DNA of 64,000 bases from Ignavibacteria bacterium (GTDB lineage: Bacteria; Bacteroidota; Ignavibacteria; UBA10030; F1-140-MAGs086): contig VGWC01000002.1 in NCBI GenBank assembly GCA_016873775.1, positions 4,832-68,831 on the forward strand. Reading direction: 5' to 3'. Made by a program: the position numbers and the translations under genes. Shown in pieces: positions 2,850 through 33,841 of this stretch; position 1 is the stretch's first letter, and every line of letters begins with the position of its first letter. A model generated the notes under the pieces. That model was not told where the DNA came from. It was given only the letters and a program-made list of their open reading frames with translations, and ran no database searches.

Positions 2850-3583
2850 ACATCGCACTGATTGGCTACGGAAAAATGGGAAAAGAAATTGAATCGTTGT
2901 CAAAAGAACGCGGAACAGTTATCAAAAAAATTTTTACTCGAGAAAATAATAGCGCGGGAAAATCCCTGAACAAACAATCCTTAAAAGATATTGACCTCTG
3001 TTTCGAATTTTCTGCTCCCGACGAAGCGTATTACAATATTGAAGCGTTGATTGCGGCTAAAAAAAATATTGTGTGCGGAACAACAGGATGGTTTGACAAA
3101 ATTTCTTCCGTAAAAAAACTCGTAGAAGAACATCAGATCGGTTTTGTGTATTCTTCGAACTTCTCTCTGGGAATGAATATTTTTATTAGCACAGTTGAGC
3201 GCGCCGCTTCGCTTCTCAACCGTTTCAACGAATACGATGTAAGCATTCACGAAACACATCATGTTCGCAAACCGGATTCGCCTAGCGGAACAGCGTTTGC
3301 GCTCGCATCACTTCTTCTCCAAAATTTTCCACGCAAAACAGAAATCATCACGGAAACGGCTCACCAACAATTGCAACCGCATCAACTGCACGTTTCTTCA
3401 ACTCGCATCGGAAACGTCGTTGGACAACATACCGTCTTGTTTGATTCCGAAGTGGATTCGCTCGAATTAATTCACACAGCAAAAAATCGGCGCGGATTTG
3501 CATTAGGTGCAATTATCGCTGCCGAATGGCTGTATTACACTCAACAGAAAGGATTTTTTACGATGAAGGACGTTCTCGGATGA
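2846..3583 (+). CDS. dapB: 4-hydroxy-tetrahydrodipicolinate reductase
   Basis: MNIALIGYGKMGK is the Rossmann motif. HETHHVRKPDSPSGTAFALA is the DapB catalytic motif. The gene overlaps upstream pfkB and downstream dapA in ATGA fashion. Confidence 0.9.
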   Translation: MNIALIGYGKMGKEIESLSKERGTVIKKIFTRENNSAGKSLNKQSLKDIDLCFEFSAPDEAYYNIEALIAAKKNIVCGTTGWFDKISSVKKLVEEHQIGFVYSSNFSLGMNIFISTVERAASLLNRFNEYDVSIHETHHVRKPDSPSGTAFALASLLLQNFPRKTEIITETAHQQLQPHQLHVSSTRIGNVVGQHTVLFDSEVDSLELIHTAKNRRGFALGAIIAAEWLYYTQQKGFFTMKDVLG

Positions 3584-4479
3584 AACAGCAAACAATCTTA
3601 TTCCGTGGCACTGGAACCGCACTCATTACTCCATTCACGAAAAAAAATACCATTGACGAACGCGCACTTCGCCGACTTATTGATTACCAAATCGAAGGTG
3701 GCGTGGAAGCGATTCTCCCTATCGGAACAACAGGCGAAAGTGCAACTCTTACCGAAGTGGAAATGCGTAAAGTTGTCGAAATTGTTGTTGCTCACAATAA
3801 CAAACGAAAAATTGTTATTGCTGGTACCGGAACAAATTCGACAATGAAAACGCTTGCACTCTCCAAAAAAGCGCGCGACATCGGCGTTGATGGTTTATTG
3901 ATAGTCGGTCCCTACTACAACAAACCGACGCAAGAAGGATTTTATCAGCATTATGCGAATATTGCCGAACATATTGAACTTCCCATCATTATCTATAACG
4001 TGCCATCGCGAACAGGTTCCAACATCACCGCCGAAACTACGTTGAAACTTGCTGAAACGTTTCCCAACATCGTTGGCATAAAAGAAGCGTCGGGAAATTT
4101 CGAACAAATTATGGAAATCCTTCGCAATCGTCCGAAACAATTTGCATTGTATTCCGGTGATGATGCCGTAACGCTTCCGATGATTGCACTCGGAGGCGAT
4201 GGCGTTGTTTCCGTTATTGCCAATCAAGCCCCGAAAATGTTTTCCGAAATGGTACGTTTGTGTTTGCAAGAAAAATTCCGCTATGCCTCCGCTCTGCATT
4301 ATCAACTGCTTCCCTTAATGAATTTCAATTTTATTGAATCCAATCCTATCCCCGTAAAAACTTCTCTTGCAATGATGGGTCTTATTGAAGAGAATTTCCG
4401 TTTGCCGCTCATTCAACTGAGCAGTAGAAATCGTCCGAAACTGGAAGAAATACTGAAAAATTTGAAGTTGATTTCTTAA
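3580..4479 (+). CDS. dapA: 4-hydroxy-tetrahydrodipicolinate synthase
   Basis: GTTGESATLT, IIYNVPSRTG and KEASG are DapA motifs. The start is taken at ATG 3580, overlapping the dapB stop, rather than at the longer ORF start 3526. Confidence 0.85.
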   Translation: MKQQTILFRGTGTALITPFTKKNTIDERALRRLIDYQIEGGVEAILPIGTTGESATLTEVEMRKVVEIVVAHNNKRKIVIAGTGTNSTMKTLALSKKARDIGVDGLLIVGPYYNKPTQEGFYQHYANIAEHIELPIIIYNVPSRTGSNITAETTLKLAETFPNIVGIKEASGNFEQIMEILRNRPKQFALYSGDDAVTLPMIALGGDGVVSVIANQAPKMFSEMVRLCLQEKFRYASALHYQLLPLMNFNFIESNPIPVKTSLAMMGLIEENFRLPLIQLSSRNRPKLEEILKNLKLIS

Positions 4480-9767: not shown

Positions 9768-9969
9768 TGAAATTTGAAATTGGGATTTGAGTTTTCAGAT
9801 TTTCATTTGTACCTTCTCCGCAAAATTTATTGTAGAAAAATCAACGAAGGAAATTTACTATGAGGCAATTACATTTAACTATAATTGCAATTTCAATAAT
9901 AGCAATAATTACAATTCAATTTGCTTGCAAAGAAAAACCAACCGAAACTACTCAACTCGAAACAACAAT

Positions 9970-21962: not shown

Positions 21963-22013
21963 TGTAAAATGTTCAATATAAAATTACAATAATCTCAATA
22001 ATTCCAAGTGAAA
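21963..22013. promoter_or_regulatory. Composite of two recurring motifs: 22-mer TGTAAAATGTTCAATATAAAAT plus 27-mer CAATAATCTCAATAATTCCAAGTGAAA
   Basis: Both motifs recur elsewhere: the 22-mer at 18653, and the 27-mer family at 27949 and 29956. The composite lies upstream of the minus-strand gene 20207-21901 and just 3' of era. Confidence 0.5.
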
Positions 22014-24932: not shown

Positions 24933-25424
24933 ATGAAACATTCAGATTTTTTTACACTGATTATTCGTCTCACTGTTGGAATTTTCTTTTTGTATGTCGG
25001 CGTTCAGAAAATAAACAGCGGATGGCTTACCTCGAATGAACGATTAAATAAATCGTTGTATGATTACAATGACAATGCAACAGGAATACAAAATACATAT
25101 CTTGATAAATTAGCAATTCCTTTCTCTTCCATTTGGGCGCCGCTTATTGCTCTCGGAGAAACCGCATTAGGAGTTTCGTTGCTTATCGGGCTTTTTACAC
25201 GCACTTCAACACTTATGGGATTATTGATGATTCTCAATTTTCATTTCGCAAACGGAAATTTATTTTCAGCAGATTTTTTTGAAAGTAGTGGAGCAATTGT
25301 TTTATGCGGAACACTCCTTTATTTATTTTTCAGTTACTGCGGATATTCGTATGGTCTTGATGCACTTATCTCTGTAAACGTTCATAAACGAAAAGGAAAA
25401 TCGAAGTCTGCAAAAATCAGTTAA
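24933..25424 (+). CDS. DoxX-family membrane protein
   Basis: RLTVGIFFLYVGVQKI plus four TM helices are typical of DoxX. Confidence 0.6.
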   Translation: MKHSDFFTLIIRLTVGIFFLYVGVQKINSGWLTSNERLNKSLYDYNDNATGIQNTYLDKLAIPFSSIWAPLIALGETALGVSLLIGLFTRTSTLMGLLMILNFHFANGNLFSADFFESSGAIVLCGTLLYLFFSYCGYSYGLDALISVNVHKRKGKSKSAKIS

Positions 25425-25431
25425 TAACAGA

Positions 25432-26841
25432 ATGAATAACGAACTCATCGAAATTAATCTTTCCAAAGTCGAACATTCACCACTCATCAACAAAGACATT
25501 GCGCCGACAACAATTTCGCAACGTACGTGGGGAACATACAATATCGCCGCTTTGTGGATTGGAATGAGCGTGTGCATTCCAACATATATGCTTGCAAGCG
25601 GATTGATTGCCGGTGGAATGAATTGGTGGCAAGCGATTCTCACGATTGCATTAGGAAATATTATCGTTCTCATTCCAATGATTTTAAACGCGCACGCCGG
25701 AACAAAATATGGAATTCCGTTTCCCGTTCTTACGCGCGCTTCATTCGGAACAATCGGCTCGAACATTCCTGCATTACTTCGCGCGCTCGTTGCGTGCGGT
25801 TGGTTCGGCATTCAAACGTGGATTGGCGGACAAGCAATTGATGCAATGCTCGTCGTTCTTATTCCAGCGTGGAGTACGCTTGGTTTCGGTCAGTGGATTT
25901 CGTTTGCAATTTTTTGGATGATGAACGTGTATTTCATTATCAAAGGAACGGAATCAATTCGTTGGCTCGAATCACTTGCCGCGCCGTTTCTTATTGTTGT
26001 TGGATTAGGATTGCTTGCGTGGGCGTACGTGCAAGGAGGTGGCTGGGGTCCAATTCTTTCGCAGCAAAGTAAATTTCAAACAGCAGAAGAGTTTTGGAAA
26101 TTTTTTGTTCCATCGCTGACGGGAATGGTGGGATTTTGGGCAACACTTTCGCTCAATATTCCGGATTTTTCTCGCTACGCAAAAAGTCAGCGAGCGCAAA
26201 TTCTTGGACAAGCATTCGGACTTCCGCCAACTATGGCATTGTATTCATTCATCGGCGTTGCAGTTACATCGGCAACGATTGTAATTTTTGGTGAAGCAAT
26301 TTGGGATCCCGTTGCATTGCTTGCTAAGTTTCACAATCCGATTATCATTTTGCTTTCGATGCTTTCACTTCTTGTTGCAACGCTGACGACAAACATTGCG
26401 GCAAACGTTGTTTCTCCCGCGAACGATTTCGCAAACTTAATGCCGAAGAAAATTACATTCAAAATCGGCGGATTGATTACTGCGTTTGTTGGAATCGCGA
26501 TGATGCCGTGGAAACTTCTTTCAGATTTTGGAACGTATATTTTCGTTTGGCTCATTGGTTACTCGAGTTTTCTTGGTCCCATTGCCGGCGTGATGATTGC
26601 GGATTATTTCATCATTCGCAAACTGAAATTGAACGTAGAAGATTTATATTTGCGCAATGGCGAATACGAATTCAGCAACGGTTTCAATTTTAAAGCGCTC
26701 CTTTCTCTTTTCGCCGGCGTGTTTGTCGGATTGATTGGCTTATTCGTTTCCGACCTTCGCTTTTTGTATGATTATGCGTGGTTTGTTGGGTTTGGTGTGG
26801 CAATGGTTTGTTACAAACTTATTATGAAAAAGAAGGATTAG
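25432..26841 (+). CDS. NCS1-family nucleobase:cation symporter
   Basis: Twelve TM helices. The N-terminal RTWGTYNIAALWIGMSVCIPTY and GWFGIQTWIGG motifs are typical of the cytosine/uracil/allantoin permease family. Confidence 0.7.
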   Translation: MNNELIEINLSKVEHSPLINKDIAPTTISQRTWGTYNIAALWIGMSVCIPTYMLASGLIAGGMNWWQAILTIALGNIIVLIPMILNAHAGTKYGIPFPVLTRASFGTIGSNIPALLRALVACGWFGIQTWIGGQAIDAMLVVLIPAWSTLGFGQWISFAIFWMMNVYFIIKGTESIRWLESLAAPFLIVVGLGLLAWAYVQGGGWGPILSQQSKFQTAEEFWKFFVPSLTGMVGFWATLSLNIPDFSRYAKSQRAQILGQAFGLPPTMALYSFIGVAVTSATIVIFGEAIWDPVALLAKFHNPIIILLSMLSLLVATLTTNIAANVVSPANDFANLMPKKITFKIGGLITAFVGIAMMPWKLLSDFGTYIFVWLIGYSSFLGPIAGVMIADYFIIRKLKLNVEDLYLRNGEYEFSNGFNFKALLSLFAGVFVGLIGLFVSDLRFLYDYAWFVGFGVAMVCYKLIMKKKD

Positions 26842-26842
26842 A

Positions 26843-27523
26843 ATGGTTTCTTACGTAGATAAAATATTTCAATTCTATAATGAAATTTGTGAAGGAAAAT
26901 ATTTTTGGATGAAAGAGAGGCTAGAAAAAGAAAATATTTTTATACTTGATGAGTTTCTAATTAACGAATCTTTTATGAGATTGTTTTATGATACTTACGT
27001 TGTACCACACTCCCCTAAAATCGTTATATGTGGAATTAACCCTGGAAGAAAAGGAGCCGGAAAAACTGGCGTTCCTTTTTTAGATCTTAAGTCTCTATCA
27101 AAATTATTAAACGGCTTAAATAAAATAGAAGAAGAGCGTAGCGCGCAATTTTTTTATTCCATTATTGAAAACTATGGTTGTAAAGTTTTTTATTCCAGTT
27201 TTTATGTTACAAATATTTCTTGTTTAGGTTTTATAAAAAAAGAAAAACGATATAGAAACATCAATTATTTCGACCTACCAATAGAAGTTCAGACTATTAT
27301 TTTAGAGAAATTTGTTGACGAAATGAATTTAGTTAAACCTTTACGTATTATCCCTTGCAGTATTGATGTTGAAATAACATTAAACGAGCTAAAACAAAAC
27401 GATAAAATAAATGCAATTATTGAAAATAGATTACCTCATCCTTATTACTGTTCAATTGACAGAAATAAGATCACTCAAAAGCAGAATTATATTAATACAT
27501 TAAATAGATTCATTACTTTATAA
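26843..27523 (+). CDS. Divergent uracil-DNA glycosylase superfamily protein (MUG/SMUG-like GINPG motif) in a low-GC islet
   Basis: IVICGINPGRKGAGKTGVPF parallels MUG motif A, VVFCGINPGLSSAGTGFPF. A candidate motif-B analogue is IIPCS. Its codon usage and GC are visibly lower than flanking genes. It starts 1 nt after the NCS1 stop. Confidence 0.45.
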   Translation: MVSYVDKIFQFYNEICEGKYFWMKERLEKENIFILDEFLINESFMRLFYDTYVVPHSPKIVICGINPGRKGAGKTGVPFLDLKSLSKLLNGLNKIEEERSAQFFYSIIENYGCKVFYSSFYVTNISCLGFIKKEKRYRNINYFDLPIEVQTIILEKFVDEMNLVKPLRIIPCSIDVEITLNELKQNDKINAIIENRLPHPYYCSIDRNKITQKQNYINTLNRFITL

Positions 27524-27567
27524 TTACGATCATTGAAAAGATGAGTTATTTCCTGATTTGAAAACTT

Positions 27568-27912
27568 ATGAACACACAACTTAACATCCTTCAACTTCTC
27601 CAACAACTTCCCGAAGAAAAGCAAGTGGAAGTTCTTCACTATGTTGAATTTCTCTTGCAAAAATATTCTCCGACAAAACACAATGTTGTCAAAGAAGAAA
27701 CGCAAGAATACGGAGTGCAAGAAACAACAACAATAAACCGCGAAGAACTCAAACAAGAAATTGACCAACTTCCTGAACAAATTTTAGAAGAAGTGTATCG
27801 TTTGCTTCATCCGATGCAGAAAGAGAAAAAGAGACGAGTGCCATTCAAAACATACAACTTAGGTGGACAACTTGACAAAGTGAACATAAGAAAATTTGCT
27901 TATGAAGAATGA
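27568..27912 (+). CDS. DUF2281-like putative antitoxin-like protein with no adjacent toxin gene
   Basis: N-terminal LPEEKQVEVLHYVEFLLQK matches the DUF2281 pattern. The basic, Gly-containing C-terminal tail RRVPFKTYNLGGQLDKVNIRKFAYEE matches the C-terminal tail of DUF2281/VapB-like antitoxins. Confidence 0.45.
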   Translation: MNTQLNILQLLQQLPEEKQVEVLHYVEFLLQKYSPTKHNVVKEETQEYGVQETTTINREELKQEIDQLPEQILEEVYRLLHPMQKEKKRRVPFKTYNLGGQLDKVNIRKFAYEE

Positions 27913-27948
27913 ACTTGTTCTCACTACATTGTAGCTGCATTGCAATTT

Positions 27949-27974
27949 CAATAATACCAATTATTCCAAGTGAA
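27949..27974 (+). promoter_or_regulatory. 27-nt motif CAATAATACCAATTATTCCAAGTGAA overlapping the recQ start
   Basis: Member of the CAATAATnnCAAT(A/T)AT..CAAGTGAA family, also at 21987-22013 and 29956-29984. The recQ GTG start codon lies within the motif. Confidence 0.5.
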
Positions 27975-29757
27975 CCTCCTCTCTCCGCTCAAACAATACT
28001 TCGGTTACACGACTTTTCACCCGTTGCAGGAAGAAATCATATCAGATATTCTTCAAAAAAAAGATGTGTTTGTTTTGATGCCAACGGGCGGAGGAAAATC
28101 GTTGTGTTATCAATTGCCTTCGATTATCAATGATGGAATGACAATTGTCGTTTCACCATTGATAGCATTGATGAAAGACCAAGTTGATAGTTTGCGAGAG
28201 AATGGAGTTCCTTCTGCGTTTATCAATAGTTCGTTGAATGAAAATGAAATTCATAATGTAAAAGCACAACTTCTTCGCAACGAAATCAAACTTCTCTACG
28301 TTGCGCCGGAAAGAATTATGATGCCGTCGTTTCTTCCTTTCTTGCAAACGTTGAACATCGGTTTGTTTGCGATTGACGAAGCGCATTGCATCTCTGAATG
28401 GGGACACGACTTTCGTCCCGAATACAGGCAACTCAAAACATTGCGAACAACATTTCCAACTATTCCGATTTCTGCATTTACCGCGACAGCAATTCCCGCA
28501 GTGCAGAACGATATTGTTCACCAACTCAATCTGCGCGATGCAAAAATTTACGTTGCAAGTTTCAATCGGAAAAATCTTTTCTACTCTGTTCAACCGAAAC
28601 AAGATTCGTACAAACAACTTCTCGTTTATCTGCGCGCTCACAAAAAAGATTCGGGAATTATTTATTGTTTCAGCCGCGAAAAAACGGAAACACTTGCGCA
28701 ACGTTTGAACGACGACGGTTTTCGCGCTTTACCGTACCACGCAGGACTTGATGCAAAAGTTCGAACCGAAAATCAAGAAAAGTTTATCAAAGATGACGTA
28801 GAAATTATTGTTGCAACTATTGCATTCGGAATGGGCATCAACAAATCGAACGTGCGCTTTGTTATTCATTACGACTTGCCGAAAAATTTAGAAAGTTATT
28901 ATCAGGAAACGGGACGCGCGGGACGTGATGGTTTGCCGGGCGATTGCATTTTGTTTTACGGTTACGGCGATAGAAGAAAAATTGAATACTTCATCGAAGA
29001 AATGCAAAACGAGCAAAACAAAAAAATTGCTTTTGAAAAACTTGAAAAAATAATCGAGTTTTGCGAAAACAATCATTGGTGCCGAAGAAAAATTCTTCTG
29101 AAATATTTCGGTGAAGAATATGTTCAAACAAATTGCGGCAACTGCGATACGTGCATTTCTCCGAAAGATAAGATTGACGGAACAATTCCTGCGCAAAAAA
29201 TTCTTTCGTGTATCAAACGAACGGGTGAACGATTCGGTGCAACGTATATTGTTGACGTCCTGCGCGGTTCTGAGAATGAAAAAATTCAGCACAACAAACA
29301 CGTGCAACTTTCTACGTATGGCATTGGAAAAGATTTCTCTGCAAAACAATGGAAAGCGTTTATTCGTGAACTTGTTCGGCTCGGTTTTATTTCTGTTGAT
29401 GAAGAATTTCGCAGTTTGAAATTGAACGAGCGAAGCAACGAGATTTTATTCAACAACGAAAAAGTTTTTCTCACCAAACCGGAAAAAGAAAAAGTGCGTT
29501 CAAAAGTAAGCGAACCAACCGACGATAATTTCGACTCAAAACTTTTCGATGAATTAAAACATTTACGAAAAATTCTCGCCGATGATGAGGGTGTTCCTCC
29601 GTATGTCGTTTTTCACGATACAGCATTGAAAGAAATGGCAATGTTCAAACCAACAACAGAGAGTGATTTGAAAATGATTACAGGTGTGGGAGAAAGAAAA
29701 TTGGCAAAGTATGGAGATGAGTTTTTATCTATTATACAAAGTTATTTGAAAAAATAA
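27970..29757 (+). CDS. recQ: ATP-dependent DNA helicase RecQ
   Basis: TGGGKSLCYQLP is Walker A and DEAHCISEWGHDFRPEY is DEAH. The Zn-binding Cys cluster is CRRK...CGNCDTC. The C-terminal winged helix (RQC domain) and an HRDC domain follow. Confidence 0.9.
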   Translation: MNLLSPLKQYFGYTTFHPLQEEIISDILQKKDVFVLMPTGGGKSLCYQLPSIINDGMTIVVSPLIALMKDQVDSLRENGVPSAFINSSLNENEIHNVKAQLLRNEIKLLYVAPERIMMPSFLPFLQTLNIGLFAIDEAHCISEWGHDFRPEYRQLKTLRTTFPTIPISAFTATAIPAVQNDIVHQLNLRDAKIYVASFNRKNLFYSVQPKQDSYKQLLVYLRAHKKDSGIIYCFSREKTETLAQRLNDDGFRALPYHAGLDAKVRTENQEKFIKDDVEIIVATIAFGMGINKSNVRFVIHYDLPKNLESYYQETGRAGRDGLPGDCILFYGYGDRRKIEYFIEEMQNEQNKKIAFEKLEKIIEFCENNHWCRRKILLKYFGEEYVQTNCGNCDTCISPKDKIDGTIPAQKILSCIKRTGERFGATYIVDVLRGSENEKIQHNKHVQLSTYGIGKDFSAKQWKAFIRELVRLGFISVDEEFRSLKLNERSNEILFNNEKVFLTKPEKEKVRSKVSEPTDDNFDSKLFDELKHLRKILADDEGVPPYVVFHDTALKEMAMFKPTTESDLKMITGVGERKLAKYGDEFLSIIQSYLKK

Positions 29758-29955
29758 ATCATGTTTCACTTGTTATTATTGAAATTATTGAAGTTCTCAT
29801 TACGAGAATGTTTTGCAAAAAGCACAAAGGGTGTCATTTTGAAGAACGAACCGACGAAAAATCTTCTTTCATCTTGCAATATTTCAGAGTAGATTCCTCA
29901 CTTCGTTCGGAATGACAATTTTTTTTTATTTTGTAAAACTTTCTAAAAATAAATT

Positions 29956-29984
29956 CCAATAATCTCAATAATATCAAGTGAAAG
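29956..29984 (+). promoter_or_regulatory. 27-nt motif CCAATAATCTCAATAATATCAAGTGAAAG upstream of the CoA-transferase gene
   Basis: It shares the 16-mer CAATAATCTCAATAAT exactly with the copy at 21987. Confidence 0.5.
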
Positions 29985-29998
29985 AAATAAAATCTAAA

Positions 29999-31186
29999 AT
30001 GCAATTACCTCTTCACGGAATAAAAGTTCTTGACTTCACACGAATTCTCTCAGGTCCATTTTGCACGATGAAACTCGGCGATATGGGAGCGGAAGTAATT
30101 AAAATCGAACAACCAAACAGCGGCGACGATACACGCAGTTGGGGACCGCCGTTTGTGAATGGTGAAAGCGCGTATTTTCTTTCCGTCAATCGCAACAAAA
30201 AAAGTTTAACGCTCAATTTGAAAACGAGTGAAGCAAAAGAAATTATTCGGAAACTACTTTTACAAAGCGATGTTGTTGTAGAAAATTTTCGCGCAGGAGT
30301 GATGGAGAAACTTGGATTCGGTTTCGATGATGTGCAAAAAATAAATCCGAAAATTATTTATGCTTCGATTTCCGGTTATGGACAAACGAGTTCGCGAAGT
30401 CATCAGCCGAGTTACGATTTGATTGTGCAAGGCGAATCGGGATTGATGGATGTTACCGGTTTTCCCGATGGCGCGCCAACGAAAGCGGGAATTTCTCTTG
30501 CCGATGTTACTGCGGGAACGTTGTGCTTCGAAGGAATTTTACTCGCACTGTTTCAACGAGAGAAAACAGGAAAAGGCGAGCGCGTTGATATTAGTTTGCT
30601 CGATGGCTTGCTATCATTGTTCACCTATCAATCGCAAATTGCGTTGTCATCAAATCGAAAAGTTACACGCAAGGGAAATCAGCATCCGACGATTACGCCG
30701 TACGAAACATATCAAACAAAAAACGGATTTCTGAATGTTGCCATCGGGAGTGAATCGCATTGGGAAAATTTCTGTGAAGCAATTCATCGAACGGATTTGA
30801 TGCGTGATGCTTGTTTTATTACGAATGCAAAGCGAGTTGAAAACCGCGCGTTACTGGAAAGTGAACTCAAACCTATTTTTCTTACGAAAACAAGTGAAGA
30901 GTGGATTTCTCTTTTACAAAAAGCAGATGTTCCTGTTGGAAAAATAAATTCGCTTAATGATGCTTTACAAATGGATGTGTTGAACGAGCGTGAAATGCTT
31001 GCTTTGGTTCAACATCCGAAAGTTGGTGAAATAAAAATTGTAGGAAATCCGATTAAACTTTCTTCCACTTCACAACAACAATTTTCTCCGCCGCCGTTAC
31101 TTGGCGAACATACAGAAGAGATTTTGCTTTCGATTGGGTACTCGAAAAATACGATTGGCGAACTGCAAAAAGGAAATGTGATTTAA
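29999..31186 (+). CDS. CoA-transferase family III (CaiB/BaiF) protein
   Basis: N-terminal GIKVLDFTRILSGPFCTMKLGDMGAEVIKIE and the catalytic-Asp region are typical of CaiB/BaiF. The start is preferred at ATG 29999 rather than at GTG 29978, which sits inside the repeat motif. Confidence 0.8.
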   Translation: MQLPLHGIKVLDFTRILSGPFCTMKLGDMGAEVIKIEQPNSGDDTRSWGPPFVNGESAYFLSVNRNKKSLTLNLKTSEAKEIIRKLLLQSDVVVENFRAGVMEKLGFGFDDVQKINPKIIYASISGYGQTSSRSHQPSYDLIVQGESGLMDVTGFPDGAPTKAGISLADVTAGTLCFEGILLALFQREKTGKGERVDISLLDGLLSLFTYQSQIALSSNRKVTRKGNQHPTITPYETYQTKNGFLNVAIGSESHWENFCEAIHRTDLMRDACFITNAKRVENRALLESELKPIFLTKTSEEWISLLQKADVPVGKINSLNDALQMDVLNEREMLALVQHPKVGEIKIVGNPIKLSSTSQQQFSPPPLLGEHTEEILLSIGYSKNTIGELQKGNVI

Positions 31187-31925: not shown

Positions 31926-32375
31926 AAATTACACCTTGAAATCATCATCAATGCATCGCAGGAAAAAATCTGGGATACCATTACTAACGACAGAAAATAT
32001 CGCGAATGGAAAAGCGCATTCCACGAAGGTTCATACTTAAAGAAATTGGAATATGGGCGATTCAATAAAATTCATTGCAGTCAATAACGATGGAAAAACA
32101 GAAGGTATGATTTCTGAAATTGATGAAAGTAGGTATCCGGAATTTATTTCCATAAAACACATAGGATATATTTTGAACGGTGTTGAAGATACACAAGCGA
32201 CGGAGTAAAAAAATGGGTTCCTTCGTACGAAAACTACACGATAGAAAAAATGGAATCGCAAAAAAAAACATTTATACTCGAAATGGATGTGCTCGAAGAA
32301 TATTATGATATGTTCATGGACGTATGGCCAAAAGCTTTGAAGAAATTCAATGAAGTTAGTGAGAACAATGATTGA
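31926..32375 (+). pseudogene. SRPBCC (Aha1/START-like) family gene disrupted by two frameshifts or stops, with no start codon
   Basis: Three collinear pieces: EIIINASQEKIWDTITNDRKYREWKSAFHEGSY (frame 0, 31926-32084), MISEIDESRYPEFISIKHIGYILNG (frame 1, 32107-32205) and TFILEMDVLEEYYDMFMDVWPKALKKF (frame 0, 32214-32372). Together they span about 150 codons. Confidence 0.55.
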
Positions 32376-32447
32376 AAACAATAAGAAGTTTCATTGAACT
32401 CATAGCAAAATCTGTGAATGAAATTCTTATATTTGTCGCACTTTTTT

Positions 32448-32520
32448 GGGGCTGTAGCTCAGTTGGGAGAGCGTTCGGTTCGCATCCGAAAGGTCGAGAG
32501 TTCGAATCTCTTCAGCTCCA
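32448..32520 (+). tRNA. tRNA-Ala (anticodon CGC)
   Basis: Manual cloverleaf GGGGCTG-TA-GCTC-AGTTGGGA-GAGC-G-TTCGG-TTCGCAT-CCGAA-AGGTC-GAGAG-TTCGAAT-CTCTT-CAGCTCC-A. It carries the G3:U70 alanine identity pair. No CCA is encoded. Confidence 0.85.
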
Positions 32521-32672
32521 CTAATAAATGGATAATCATTGTGCGGGAATTGCTTGTCATTTTTTTGACAAGCATTTTTCTTTTAAAATACTTCAAATGA
32601 TTTCGACGCAACAAAAAAATCCGTTCAAAAAACAATACTTCACTGGTATACAAAGCATCGCAGAAAACTTAT

Positions 32673-32918
32673 TTGGAGAAATTCAAACAATCCTTACGAA
32701 ATTGTTGTTTCAGAAATTATGTAGCAACAAACGCAAACGAAACGTATGTTTCTACCGATGTATTGTTGAGAAACATATTCGATGAAAACGATATTCATCC
32801 TTCATTTGCTCGCGAAAAAGTATTCAAAAAAATTTTTTCAGAATTGGCAACTGATGGAATACTCGAATCAATCATTTGCGCTAAAAAATCTTATTTGCGA
32901 TTGCAAGAAACTTTATGA
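32673..32918 (+). CDS. Hypothetical small protein (81 aa)
   Basis: Its stop overlaps the downstream gene start (ATGA). There is no recognisable motif. Confidence 0.3.
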   Translation: MEKFKQSLRNCCFRNYVATNANETYVSTDVLLRNIFDENDIHPSFAREKVFKKIFSELATDGILESIICAKKSYLRLQETL

Positions 32919-33199
32919 CAAACTCAAAAGCACAAGCGCTGAAAGAATTTCAGCAAATTCCAGGCGTAGGAAAAAGTATTGCAAACGATTTATGGGAACT
33001 TGGGTTCCGTTCGGTTCAGGATTTGAAATACAACAACCCGGAAGAAATGTACGAACGATACTGTTCGTTAGTCGGAACTACCGTTGACCGATGTTTGCTT
33101 TATGTGTTTCGTTGCGCGGTATATTTTGCTTCAAATAAAAAGCACGAACCAGAATTATTGAAATGGTGGAATTGGAAATATGATCAAAAATTATTGTAG
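32915..33199 (+). CDS. Helix-hairpin-helix DNA-binding protein (Cdd1-like)
   Basis: IPGVGKSIANDLWELGFRSVQDL is an HhH motif. The size of 94 aa fits Cdd1-family proteins. Confidence 0.55.
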   Translation: MTNSKAQALKEFQQIPGVGKSIANDLWELGFRSVQDLKYNNPEEMYERYCSLVGTTVDRCLLYVFRCAVYFASNKKHEPELLKWWNWKYDQKLL

Positions 33200-33421
33200 C
33201 CACTTAATGTTTATGGAAGGTTTTTTTCGTAGATTTTTTCCGCATCTTAAAACAATATTTTACATTCAATTATTATTTTTGGGGAGAAAATTATAAGATA
33301 AGATTTCACAAAATAATTACTTTCTTACTTTAATCTCAATACAGATTACAATTTTGGTAAATATAATTCTGCAAGCGGGGTATTAACATTTATAATCTAA
33401 CAGTTTCATTGTATAAACTGA

Positions 33422-33451
33422 AGGCAGATTTTTTTGAATCTGCCTTTTTTG
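33422..33451 (+). terminator. Rho-independent terminator hairpin
   Basis: aggcagat-ttttttga-atctgcct is followed by tttttt. It lies inside a 370-bp non-coding region. Confidence 0.6.
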
Positions 33452-33568
33452 TTGTTTCAAAAAAATCCTCTTGGAGAAAAGTATAAAACACATCCATCAA
33501 TTTTCACCGTTTATCTTGTTTATTTACTGTTTTACTCGTATATATTTCCCAACTTTTTTTAATTCATT

Positions 33569-33841
33569 ATGAAGGTAGGTTGTAAAATACATGTCAGCGG
33601 TATCGTGCAAGGAGTTGGTTTTCGCTACTTTGTCTTTAAAAAAGCAGGGAATTTGTCATTAGTAGGATTTGTAAAAAATCTTACAAACAGCAACGTAGAA
33701 ATTTATGCAGAAGGAGAACGCTCACTCGTAGAAGAACTGATTACACGTGTAAAAATTGGTCCTCCCAACGCACACGTGAGCGGATTACATATAACATGGG
33801 AAGAATGGAAAGGGACATATTCTAATTTTAAGATTCACTAA
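33569..33841 (+). CDS. acyP: Acylphosphatase
   Basis: VSGIVQGVGFRYF is the acylphosphatase signature 1. Length is 90 aa. Confidence 0.8.
   Translation: MKVGCKIHVSGIVQGVGFRYFVFKKAGNLSLVGFVKNLTNSNVEIYAEGERSLVEELITRVKIGPPNAHVSGLHITWEEWKGTYSNFKIH

What the first reader, a model, noticed from the sequence alone, without database searches (positions are those of the whole stretch)
25432..27912. Low-GC islet: NCS1 nucleobase transporter translationally coupled to a divergent UDG-superfamily protein, then an orphan DUF2281-like gene, all just upstream of recQ
The 26843-27523 ORF starts 1 nt after the NCS1 permease stop. It has visibly lower GC and different codon usage (tta/ata/aga-rich) than its neighbours. 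It carries the MUG/SMUG-type motif-A string ICGINPGRKGAGKTGVPF, but only a weak candidate motif B (IIPCS). The next ORF (27568-27912) has a DUF2281-type N-terminus and the C-terminal tail (LGGQLDKVNIRKFAYEE) matches the C-terminal tail of DUF2281/VapB-like antitoxins. No PIN or other toxin gene follows it. RecQ follows instead. The arrangement transporter, UDG-fold protein, antitoxin-like gene, recombination helicase is not a described unit. It could be a horizontally acquired DNA-base surveillance or modified-base handling module, or a TA remnant.
Basis: partly seen in the sequence, partly recalled or inferred. Interest (0 to 1): 0.6.

Follow-up and report, generated by a model that had tools for sequence, protein, structure and literature searches.

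The report
Acquired SMUG2-like glycosylase beside orphan antitoxin
Four unrelated genes sit side by side in an Ignavibacteria chromosome (a nucleobase permease, a horizontally acquired DNA-repair glycosylase of the known SMUG2 family, a toxin-less antitoxin leftover and ordinary recQ), and they do not form a conserved functional unit.

Summary
The ORFs, the 1-nt NCS1/UDG junction, the motif string and the missing toxin are all real. The "low-GC islet" is a single gene. Only the 226-aa ORF (26843-27523) is an outlier: GC 0.269, the lowest of 58 genes, with strong TTA/AGA/CTA bias. NCS1 is GC-rich and the 114-aa gene is normal.

The 226-aa protein is a standard member of the SMUG2/DUF4918 branch of the UDG superfamily. 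A family profile matches the sequence of PDB entry 5H0J at E 9e-28. An AF2 model (pLDDT 95.7) has P. heparinus SMUG2 as best PDB fold, then SMUG1. Both catalytic motifs are intact: GINPG with N66, and LPHPYYCS with H199.

The 114-aa protein fuses a DUF2281 hairpin to a full-length copy of an unannotated 59-aa VapB-like family. Elsewhere that family is followed, with an 8-nt overlap, by a PIN toxin. No PIN or remnant of it is found in this window, so the gene is an orphan antitoxin.

The linkage is not conserved. None of 49 homologue loci from species-representative genomes has an NCS1 or this antitoxin, and one has a distant RecQ-like gene. None of 80 RecQ loci has a UDG, NCS1 or antitoxin.

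Verdict: an ordinary, lineage-specific juxtaposition with a likely single-gene horizontal transfer. Low interest.

The parts
25432..26841 (+). NCS1-family nucleobase:cation symporter, 469 aa, substrate not assignable. Neighbour only, not functionally linked.
   Evidence: Pfam PF02133 E 1.9e-123. TIGR00800 scores 392 bits against a cut-off of 353. The allantoin and cytosine permease equivalogs fall below their cut-offs. GC 0.436.
26833..26845 (+). Junction: Shine-Dalgarno-like AAGGA (26833-26837), NCS1 stop TAG (26839-26841), one spacer base, then the ATG of the glycosylase gene (26843).
   Evidence: Read directly from the sequence. The start codon is supported by N-terminal alignment with homologues.
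26843..27523 (+). SMUG2-like (DUF4918) UDG-superfamily DNA glycosylase, 226 aa. A single-gene low-GC outlier, probably horizontally acquired.
   Evidence: Pfam UDG scores 27.7 bits against a gathering cut-off of 24.3. NCBI names the identical protein a DUF4918 family protein. A family profile matches the sequence of PDB entry 5H0J at E 9e-28. The AF2 model has pLDDT 95.7 and its top PDB fold is P. heparinus SMUG2 at TM 0.74. GC 0.269, GC3 0.207, codon bias.
27026..27085 (+). Motif 1 region, residues 62-81 (ICGINPGRKGAGKTGVPFLD), containing the presumed catalytic Asn66.
   Evidence: C63, G64, N66, P67, G68, G71, G73, K74, G76, P78, F79 and D81 are invariant in 31 homologues. The region aligns to GINPGRFGSGLTGIPFTD of SMUG2 and GMNPGPWGMAQTGVPF of SMUG1.
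27431..27454 (+). Motif 2, residues 197-204 (LPHPYYCS), containing the presumed catalytic His199.
   Evidence: L197, H199 and P200 are invariant. The motif aligns to LEHPRF of the 5H0J sequence.
27568..27912 (+). Orphan VapB-like antitoxin gene, 114 aa, a fusion of two modules.
   Evidence: Pfam DUF2281 E 1.9e-11. NCBIfam TA_VapB scores 38 bits, below its cut-off of 60. An HMM of the 59-aa family scores 93.8 bits. The AF2 model shows two helix-loop-helix hairpins, a disordered linker and a disordered tail.
27586..27693 (+). DUF2281-type N-terminal hairpin, residues 7-42.
   Evidence: Pfam PF10047, profile positions 2-37 of 64. Helices 3-12 and 16-33 in the model.
27730..27909 (+). Full-length copy (residues 55-114) of a 59-aa PIN-associated antitoxin family, including the tail NLGGQLDKVNIRKFAYEE.
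   Evidence: 65 relatives other than the protein itself have E<=1e-3, almost all 58-65 aa long and aligned end to end. P69, L98, G100 and R108 are nearly invariant, and D103 and A111 are invariant. Partner genes are PIN.
27970..29757 (+). Housekeeping recQ helicase, 595 aa, GTG start. Neighbour only.
   Evidence: TIGR01389 scores 796 bits against a cut-off of 640. DEAD, Helicase_C, RecQ_Zn_bind, RQC and HRDC domains are present. NCBIfam DpdF scores 184 bits, below its cut-off of 550.

Best explanation
This is a lineage-specific, accidental juxtaposition of four functionally unrelated chromosomal genes in an uncultured Ignavibacteria bacterium.

(1) The 226-aa gene encodes a base-excision-repair glycosylase of the SMUG2/DUF4918 subfamily, part of the family-3, SMUG-type branch of the UDG superfamily. 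By homology it should flip a deaminated base (uracil, possibly hypoxanthine or xanthine) out of DNA into its pocket. Asn66 of the GINPG motif would position the attacking water, and His199 of the HPYY motif would stabilise the leaving base. The resulting abasic site would go to AP endonuclease, polymerase and ligase. The fold, the motifs and the family membership are shown here. The chemistry and the substrates are inferred.

(2) This gene alone was probably acquired horizontally from a donor with lower GC. It landed, or was retained, directly behind the NCS1 permease, and it may be translated by coupling or from its own Shine-Dalgarno-like site.

(3) The 114-aa gene is what remains of a vapBC-type toxin-antitoxin locus. 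It is an antitoxin built from a DUF2281 hairpin fused to a complete 59-aa VapB-like module whose usual PIN toxin partner has been lost. It is either decaying, or it persists as an autoregulator or as a neutraliser of PIN toxins encoded elsewhere. That last point is speculative.

(4) NCS1 and recQ are ordinary resident genes.
For: Family assignment:
- Pfam UDG is above its gathering score.
- The identical protein is named DUF4918 at NCBI, and 110 homologues carry PF03167.
- phmmer matches the sequence of PDB entry 5H0J at E 5e-15, and the family profile matches at E 9e-28 over positions 29-218.
- Foldseek lists 5H0K/5H0J, 'Pedobacter heparinus SMUG2', first (TM 0.74). SMUG1 follows (about 0.70), then UdgX and family 4 (about 0.45-0.5).
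- Motif residues are invariant.
- RefSeq names a 27%-identical Listeria homologue 'SMUG2 DNA glycosylase family protein'.
- Reviews describe SMUG2 as a characterised UDG with a wider substrate range that may include U derivatives, hypoxanthine and xanthine (PMC8307549), and place it among the family 3 subfamilies (PMC10776899).

Horizontal transfer:
- The gene has the lowest GC and GC3 of 58 ORFs.
- The GC boundaries are sharp and fall at the gene's ends.
- Synonymous codon choice is biased.
- In 45 homologue loci the gene-minus-flank GC averages -0.013 and is never below -0.106. Here it is -0.112, so the dip is not a property of the family.
- The taxonomic distribution is patchy: Syntrophales, Clostridium, Bacillaceae, Bacteroidales, SAR324, Nitrosomonadales, Ignavibacteriota.

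No module:
-.

Orphan antitoxin:
-.

Housekeeping surroundings:
- Era, MnmA, DoxX, a family III CoA-transferase and DUF1801 flank the region.
- There is no adjacent tRNA and no long flanking repeat pair.
Against: - No close relative of this organism was recovered. The best RecQ match is 55% identical, and the window's own genome was not recovered in the species-representative genome scan. No 'empty site' therefore shows an insertion directly.
- All genes from DoxX to recQ are on one strand with spacers of 1-57 nt and no terminator-like site between them. Co-transcription, and hence some regulatory coupling in this one organism, cannot be excluded.
- The arrangement is identical in three other metagenome contigs, but these come from the same strain (99.5-100% identity) and say nothing about conservation.
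- Enzyme activity was not tested.
Confidence: 0.8

Rival explanations
1. The four genes form a functional, horizontally acquired 'base surveillance / modified-base handling' module. The permease would import or export a nucleobase, the UDG-fold enzyme would excise it from DNA, and RecQ would process the intermediates, all under antitoxin-like regulation.
For: The genes are co-oriented and tightly spaced with no predicted terminators. The permease and the glycosylase are 1 nt apart. RecQ gives strong hits to PADLOC 'DpdF' models.
Against: None of 49 homologue loci from species-representative genomes has an NCS1 or the antitoxin, and only one has a distant RecQ-like gene about 4 kb away. No neighbour family recurs across lineages. 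None of 80 RecQ loci has a UDG, NCS1 or antitoxin. Only one of the four genes is compositionally foreign. RecQ passes the curated recQ equivalog and fails the curated DpdF cut-off (184 bits against 550). No other Dpd-type genes lie nearby. PADLOC finds nothing for the UDG or the 114-aa protein.
Confidence: 0.04
2. The UDG-fold protein and the 114-aa protein are a novel toxin-antitoxin pair, with a DNA-glycosylase toxin upstream and the antitoxin downstream.
For: The order, a larger enzyme followed 44 nt later by a small antitoxin-like gene, matches 'toxin-first' systems. The antitoxin has no other partner in the window.
Against: An HMM of the antitoxin family finds nothing near any of 51 homologue loci: the 49 from representative genomes plus the contigs of the two closest homologues. 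The antitoxin's relatives pair with PIN toxins through an 8-nt overlap downstream, not with an upstream gene. The two genes differ sharply in GC and codon usage, so they did not arrive together. The glycosylase keeps the full repair-enzyme motif set of a family with a characterised repair member.
Confidence: 0.03
3. The GC dip is noise, or an effect of amino-acid composition, and the glycosylase is an old resident gene rather than a transfer.
For: The protein is rich in FYMINK residues (0.447 against 0.322). GC1 and GC2 are low too, not just GC3. The codon-adaptation index is only the third-lowest in the window (z -2.05).
Against: Only 0.05% of equal-length windows are as low. Synonymous choices (TTA, CTA, AGA) differ strongly. 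Homologues in 45 other genomes track their hosts' GC, with a mean difference of -0.013. The compositional boundaries coincide with the gene's ends.
Confidence: 0.12

Closest known systems
SMUG2 DNA glycosylase of Pedobacter heparinus (PDB 5H0J/5H0K; Pang et al. 2017, Biochem J 474:923, cited in PMC10776899 and PMC8307549), equivalent to the DUF4918 family
   Same: Homologous over nearly the full length (profile E 9e-28, positions 29-218 against chain residues 25-231). It is the best structural match (TM 0.74). Motif 1 has the same G-I-N-P-G-R core and motif 2 the same H-P. The sizes are similar (226 aa against 244 aa).
   Different: Only about 22% identity over the structural alignment. The window protein belongs to a distinct clade with an invariant Cys before GINPG, GAGKTG instead of GSGLTG, and HPYYCS instead of HPRF. 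No member of this clade is known to me to have been assayed. The SMUG2 paper itself could not be read here.
SMUG1, family 3 UDG (Xenopus 1OE4, human 9GM2, Geobacter 5H93)
   Same: It has the same fold (TM about 0.65-0.72) and the same motif-1 logic, G-[IM]-N-P-G...TG-[IV]-P-F.
   Different: Sequence similarity is confined to motif 1 (profile E 6e-7 at best). The N-terminal helical extension and the motif 2 context differ.
VapB/DUF2281 antitoxins of VapBC (PIN) type II toxin-antitoxin systems
   Same: The N-terminal hairpin matches DUF2281. The C-terminal module belongs to a 59-aa family whose members precede PIN genes with an 8-nt overlap. That family weakly matches NCBIfam TA_VapB and DUF2281.
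   Different: No toxin gene is present. The protein is a two-module fusion (114 aa) rather than a protein of about 60 aa. The 59-aa family has no Pfam or NCBIfam model that passes its threshold.

Membership tests
UDG superfamily (Pfam PF03167) | Profile match above the curated gathering score | tested here: met
   27.7 bits against a cut-off of 24.3, residues 55-127. All but 2 of the 110 homologues carry PF03167 in the precomputed annotation.
UDG superfamily (Pfam PF03167) | The alpha/beta UDG fold | tested here: met
   The AF2 model has pLDDT 95.7 and pTM 0.92. The first 50 PDB matches are all UDG-superfamily enzymes: SMUG2, SMUG1, family 4, UdgX and TDG.
SMUG2 / DUF4918 subfamily (family-3-like UDG) | Full-length homology to the characterised SMUG2 protein | tested here: met
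   The family profile matches the sequence of PDB entry 5H0J at E 9e-28, profile positions 29-218 of 223. It is the top Foldseek hit, TM 0.74.
SMUG2 / DUF4918 subfamily (family-3-like UDG) | Motif 1, G-I/M-N-P-G, with the catalytic Asn | tested here: met
   G64-I-N66-P-G68 is invariant in 31 homologues and aligns to GINPG of 5H0J. The role of the Asn is taken from the SMUG1 literature and from the existence of the N58D mutant entry 5H99. It was not assayed.
SMUG2 / DUF4918 subfamily (family-3-like UDG) | Motif 2, with a conserved His-Pro | tested here: met
   H199-P200 is invariant and aligns to the HP of LEHPRF in 5H0J.
SMUG2 / DUF4918 subfamily (family-3-like UDG) | Glycosylase activity on uracil, hypoxanthine or xanthine in DNA | not testable with these tools
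   This needs an enzyme assay. The substrate range of SMUG2 is taken from the review PMC8307549.
Type II VapBC toxin-antitoxin system | An antitoxin with a VapB/DUF2281-type N-terminal domain and a toxin-binding tail | tested here: met
   DUF2281 E 1.9e-11. The C-terminal module scores 93.8 bits against an HMM of the PIN-associated 59-aa family, and the tail residues are conserved.
Type II VapBC toxin-antitoxin system | An adjacent PIN-domain (VapC) toxin gene | tested here: not met
   Only 57 nt separate the gene from recQ. The overlapping 74-aa ORF matches no family. tblastn and phmmer with the cognate PIN proteins find nothing in the 64-kb window. The locus is therefore an orphan antitoxin, not a toxin-antitoxin system.
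Type II VapBC toxin-antitoxin system | NCBIfam TA_VapB equivalog cut-off | tested here: not met
   38.1 bits against a cut-off of 60.
Dpd DNA-modification / defence cluster (DpdF helicase) | A curated DpdF match plus neighbouring dpd genes | tested here: not met
   NCBIfam DpdF scores 184 bits against a cut-off of 550, while the recQ equivalog passes. The neighbours are Era, MnmA, DoxX, a CoA-transferase and DUF1801. The PADLOC DpdF hit (816 bits) looks generic to RecQ-type helicases, since the protein passes the curated recQ equivalog and fails the curated DpdF cut-off.

The most novel reading that the evidence does not exclude
The clade to which the 226-aa protein belongs is marked by CGINPGRxGAGKTG ... 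E-SAQF ... LPHPYYCS. It is about 22% identical to P. heparinus SMUG2 and is spread patchily across Firmicutes, Syntrophales, Bacteroidota, SAR324, Nitrosomonadales and Ignavibacteriota. It could be a biochemically uncharacterised sister subfamily of SMUG2 with its own substrate range, for example oxidised or modified pyrimidines, that moves between phyla by gene transfer. Separately, the fused two-hairpin orphan antitoxin could have been domesticated as a single-chain regulator or as an 'anti-addiction' factor against incoming PIN toxins.
Probability: 0.15. Interest if true: 0.35.

Novelty: new member of a known kind. Interest (0 to 1): 0.15.

Why it matters
It matters little beyond annotation. 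The result corrects the motif assignment of this glycosylase and places it in the SMUG2/DUF4918 subfamily. It gives a clean single-gene example of compositional evidence for horizontal transfer of a repair glycosylase. It also shows that gene adjacency, even a 1-nt spacing, does not imply a functional module. A modest by-product is the definition of an unannotated 59-aa, PIN-associated VapB-like antitoxin family whose toxin partners are often decayed or lost.

Tried and rejected
- Conserved linkage. tblastn with NCS1, RecQ, DoxX and the 114-aa protein against 49 homologue loci, and all-against-all neighbour clustering, gave nothing conserved. The reverse test from 80 RecQ loci was also negative.
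- 'Empty-site' comparison with close relatives.
- PIN remnant. The 74-aa ORF that overlaps the antitoxin stop has no family hit, and cognate PIN queries give E>0.1 across the window.
- Internal duplication in the 114-aa protein. BLASTP finds no similarity between the two halves, so a fusion is favoured over a recent duplication.
- Defence-system or phage origin. PADLOC finds nothing for the UDG or the antitoxin, and PHROGs gives only E of about 0.002-0.008. In the plasmid and phage collections the only matches are 27%-identical Listeria ones.
- Signs of a mobile element. The nearest tRNA genes are 8-9 kb upstream (18730) and 4.5 kb downstream (32448), and no long direct or inverted repeat pair flanks the low-GC gene.
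- Riboswitch or other RNA. Rfam finds only three tRNAs in the window.
- Regex search for DUF2281-like ORFs next to homologues. It found nothing, and was superseded by the HMM test.
- Literature and libraries. The SMUG2 and Listeria SMUG1-like primary papers are not held, and the afdb50 fold library was unavailable.
Full report
**Observation**

The genes lie on the + strand in this order:
- DoxX (24933-25424)
- an NCS1 permease (25432-26841)
- a 226-aa ORF (26843-27523)
- a 114-aa ORF (27568-27912)
- recQ (27970-29757, GTG start)

The NCS1 stop TAG (26839-26841) is separated by one base from the ATG at 26843. An AAGGA string ends 5 nt upstream of that ATG. N-terminal alignment with homologues supports this start codon.

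NCS1 and RecQ are unambiguous. NCS1 matches PF02133 at E 1.9e-123 and passes TIGR00800. RecQ passes the TIGR01389 equivalog with 796 bits against a cut-off of 640, and carries the DEAD, Helicase_C, Zn-binding, RQC and HRDC domains.

**Composition**

The 226-aa gene has GC 0.269, against 0.381 for the window.
- Only 0.05% of equal-length sliding windows are as low (z -3.6).
- Among 58 non-overlapping ORFs it has the lowest GC (z -3.8) and the lowest GC3 (0.207, z -3.4). Its codon-adaptation index is the third-lowest (z -2.05).
TTA is 60% of Leu codons against 18% elsewhere (p 4e-5). AGA is 60% of Arg against 16% (p 0.002). CTA is 25% against 3%. ATA is 29% against 15% (p 0.056).
- A 120-nt profile shows the drop beginning at the NCS1 stop and ending at about 27560, the start of the 114-aa gene.

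The 'islet' is therefore one gene. NCS1 is GC-rich (0.436). The 114-aa gene is ordinary (GC 0.362, adaptation z +1.0).

As a control, I compared the homologous gene with its flanks in 45 other genomes. The mean difference is -0.013 and the minimum is -0.106, whereas here it is -0.112. The dip is therefore not an intrinsic property of the family, and horizontal acquisition from a lower-GC donor is the best reading. The patchy distribution of homologues agrees with this: Syntrophales, Clostridium, many Bacillaceae, Bacteroidales, SAR324, Nitrosomonadales and one Ignavibacteriota MAG.

**The 226-aa protein**

The sequence evidence is consistent.
- It passes the Pfam UDG gathering score (27.7 bits against 24.3).
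- The identical sequence exists at NCBI as 'MAG: DUF4918 family protein [Ignavibacteria bacterium]'. There are 110 homologues at 35-57% identity, and all but two carry PF03167 in the precomputed annotation.
- Against PDB sequences the best match is 5H0J/5H0K (E 5e-15).
- A profile of 31 homologues matches 5H0J at E 9e-28 over nearly the full length.

The structural evidence agrees.
- An AlphaFold2 model built from the alignment is very confident (pLDDT 95.7, pTM 0.92).
- Foldseek against the PDB returns 'Pedobacter heparinus SMUG2' (5H0K/5H0J) first, at TM 0.74. SMUG1 structures follow (TM about 0.65-0.72), then family 4, UdgX and TDG (TM 0.35-0.5).

SMUG2 is a published, characterised subfamily (Pang et al. 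2017). It is cited as one of the family 3 subfamilies in PMC10776899 and as having a wider substrate range, possibly including U derivatives, hypoxanthine and xanthine, in PMC8307549. RefSeq annotates a 27%-identical Listeria homologue as 'SMUG2 DNA glycosylase family protein'.

The invariant residues of the clade are C63, G64, N66, P67, G68, G71, G73, K74, G76, P78, F79, D81, E98, S100, A101, Y121, G129, L197, H199 and P200.
- Motif B is not 'IIPCS'. Those residues (169-173) form a beta-strand (model strand 168-171).
- The real motif 2 is LPHPYYCS (197-204), which aligns with LEHPRF of SMUG2.

The protein is thus an intact, typical member of a known family, not a degenerate or especially divergent one.

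By analogy with SMUG1 and SMUG2, Asn66 and His199 are the catalytic pair of a monofunctional glycosylase that starts base-excision repair of deaminated bases. This step is inferred and was not tested.

**The 114-aa protein**

- Residues 7-42 match DUF2281 (E 1.9e-11). NCBIfam TA_VapB scores 38 bits, below its cut-off of 60.
- The word-indexed search found only the protein itself.
- An exhaustive phmmer search of 1.84 billion representatives found 65 relatives. Nearly all are 58-65 aa long and align end to end with residues 55-114.
- The family consensus is MxTKExxKKEIDxLPDxxLxxVYxxIxxLKxxKxxKxxxxTFxLxGQFDxVNIRxxAYE.
- The family has no Pfam or NCBIfam model. DUF2281 and TA_VapB are hit only weakly, in 10 and 11 of 26 members.

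Genomic context shows what the family is.
- In L056 and L060 (and the truncated L061) the next gene overlaps it by 8 nt and is a 136-138-aa PIN-domain protein starting MNNVLFDTNLLIY (Pfam PIN, 41-43 bits).
- In L053-L055 and L057/L058 the PIN gene is disrupted or truncated but keeps the same N-terminus.
- In L059 it is absent.

In the window, only 57 nt separate the gene from recQ. The overlapping 74-aa ORF has no family hit. Neither tblastn nor phmmer with the cognate PIN proteins finds anything in the 64 kb.

The 114-aa protein is therefore an orphan VapB-like antitoxin. It is made of a DUF2281 hairpin, lacking that family's own tail, fused to a complete 59-aa module. The two halves are not similar by BLASTP. 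The AF2 model shows two helix-loop-helix hairpins (3-33 and 58-83), with a disordered linker and tail (pLDDT 76, pTM 0.30).

**Is there a unit?**

No.
- Among 49 loci from species-representative genomes that encode a homologue of the glycosylase (flanks up to 8 kb), none has an NCS1 gene and none has the antitoxin, by tblastn or by family HMM. One has a 25%-identical RecQ-family gene about 4 kb away.
- Neighbour clustering finds no family shared across lineages.
- The two closest homologues (57% and 50% identity) sit in unrelated contexts.
- Seen from the other side, 80 metagenomic RecQ loci (44-55% identity, flanks up to 6 kb) contain no UDG, NCS1 or antitoxin homologue.
- PADLOC and PHROGs give nothing meaningful for the two small genes.
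- The PADLOC 'DpdF' hit of RecQ looks generic, because the curated DpdF equivalog is not reached (184 bits against 550).
- The surrounding genes are housekeeping: Era, a 3HCDH-domain protein, MnmA, DoxX, a family III CoA-transferase and DUF1801.

The same four-gene order in three other metagenome contigs reflects the same strain (99.5-100% identity) and not conservation.

**Limits**

No close relative of the organism was available, so the insertion cannot be shown by an empty site. The co-orientation, the short spacers and the absence of terminator-like sites between the genes leave co-transcription in this one organism open.

**Verdict**

The UDG and toxin-antitoxin-remnant readings are supported. 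The 'module' reading is not. The glycosylase is a new member of a known kind (SMUG2/DUF4918), probably a single-gene horizontal acquisition, and the antitoxin is an orphan remnant. Interest is low.

Noticed in passing
window 4362-4389(-), 9892-9919(+), 21985-22012(+), 27947-27974(+), 29765-29792(-), 29955-29982(+): A 28-nt motif, TTCAATAATNNCAATNATNNCAAGTGAA (CAATAAT units at 9-nt spacing), occurs 6 times at 3 or fewer mismatches, against 0.01 expected. Five copies are intergenic or near gene starts. The sixth, the weakest match (4362-4389, 3 mismatches), lies inside the 3' end of ORF 3526-4479. An inverted pair brackets recQ, and the copy at 27947 contains the recQ GTG start. The flanks are not conserved. 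Among all fetched loci the motif is found only in contigs of the same strain. It could be an operator, a promoter or a REP-like element.
   Followed up: partly
window 29978-31186: The family III CoA-transferase ORF is called from GTG 29978, which lies inside a copy of the 28-nt motif. The internal ATG at 29999 (MQLPLHGIKVLDFTR...) looks like the more usual N-terminus for this family, so the true start is probably 29999. This was inferred from the translation and not tested.
   Followed up: no
loci L053-L061 (e.g. L056 2501-3089, L060 2501-3083, L053 2501-3377, L057 2501-2858): The 59-aa antitoxin family has no Pfam or NCBIfam model, although 115 clusters were recovered. It pairs with a specific PIN clade (N-terminus MNNVLFDTNLLIY). 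In several genomes the PIN gene is truncated (67 aa) or fused into a 234-aa ORF, so loss of the toxin with retention of the antitoxin seems common.
   Followed up: partly
L029, L032, L038, L039 (e.g. L038 8638-10140): In Nitrosomonadales, Sulfurirhabdus and one Actinomycetota MAG, the SMUG2-like gene is followed at a median distance of about 76 nt, on the same strand, by a conserved protein of about 500 aa that I did not annotate. This is the only recurrent same-strand neighbour seen, and it is restricted to these lineages.
   Followed up: no
L025 and L031 (Sporosarcina aquimarina NZ_JAMBOM010000001.1, about 537.6 kb and 551.1 kb): One genome carries two paralogues of the SMUG2-like gene about 13 kb apart.
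   Followed up: no
window 27970-29757: PADLOC's DpdF models score this RecQ at up to 816 bits over the full length, although it passes NCBI's curated recQ equivalog and fails the curated DpdF cut-off (184 bits against 550). A PADLOC DpdF hit on its own is therefore not evidence of a Dpd system.
   Followed up: yes
window 32037-33800: Two small ORFs flank tRNA-Ala (32448-32521): 32037-32381(-) and 32782-33087(+). Both lack a Pfam hit, and they have the two lowest codon-adaptation values in the window (z -2.9 and -2.2). GC falls to 0.31-0.32 at 32800-33800. This could be another small foreign or non-coding patch next to a tRNA.
   Followed up: no
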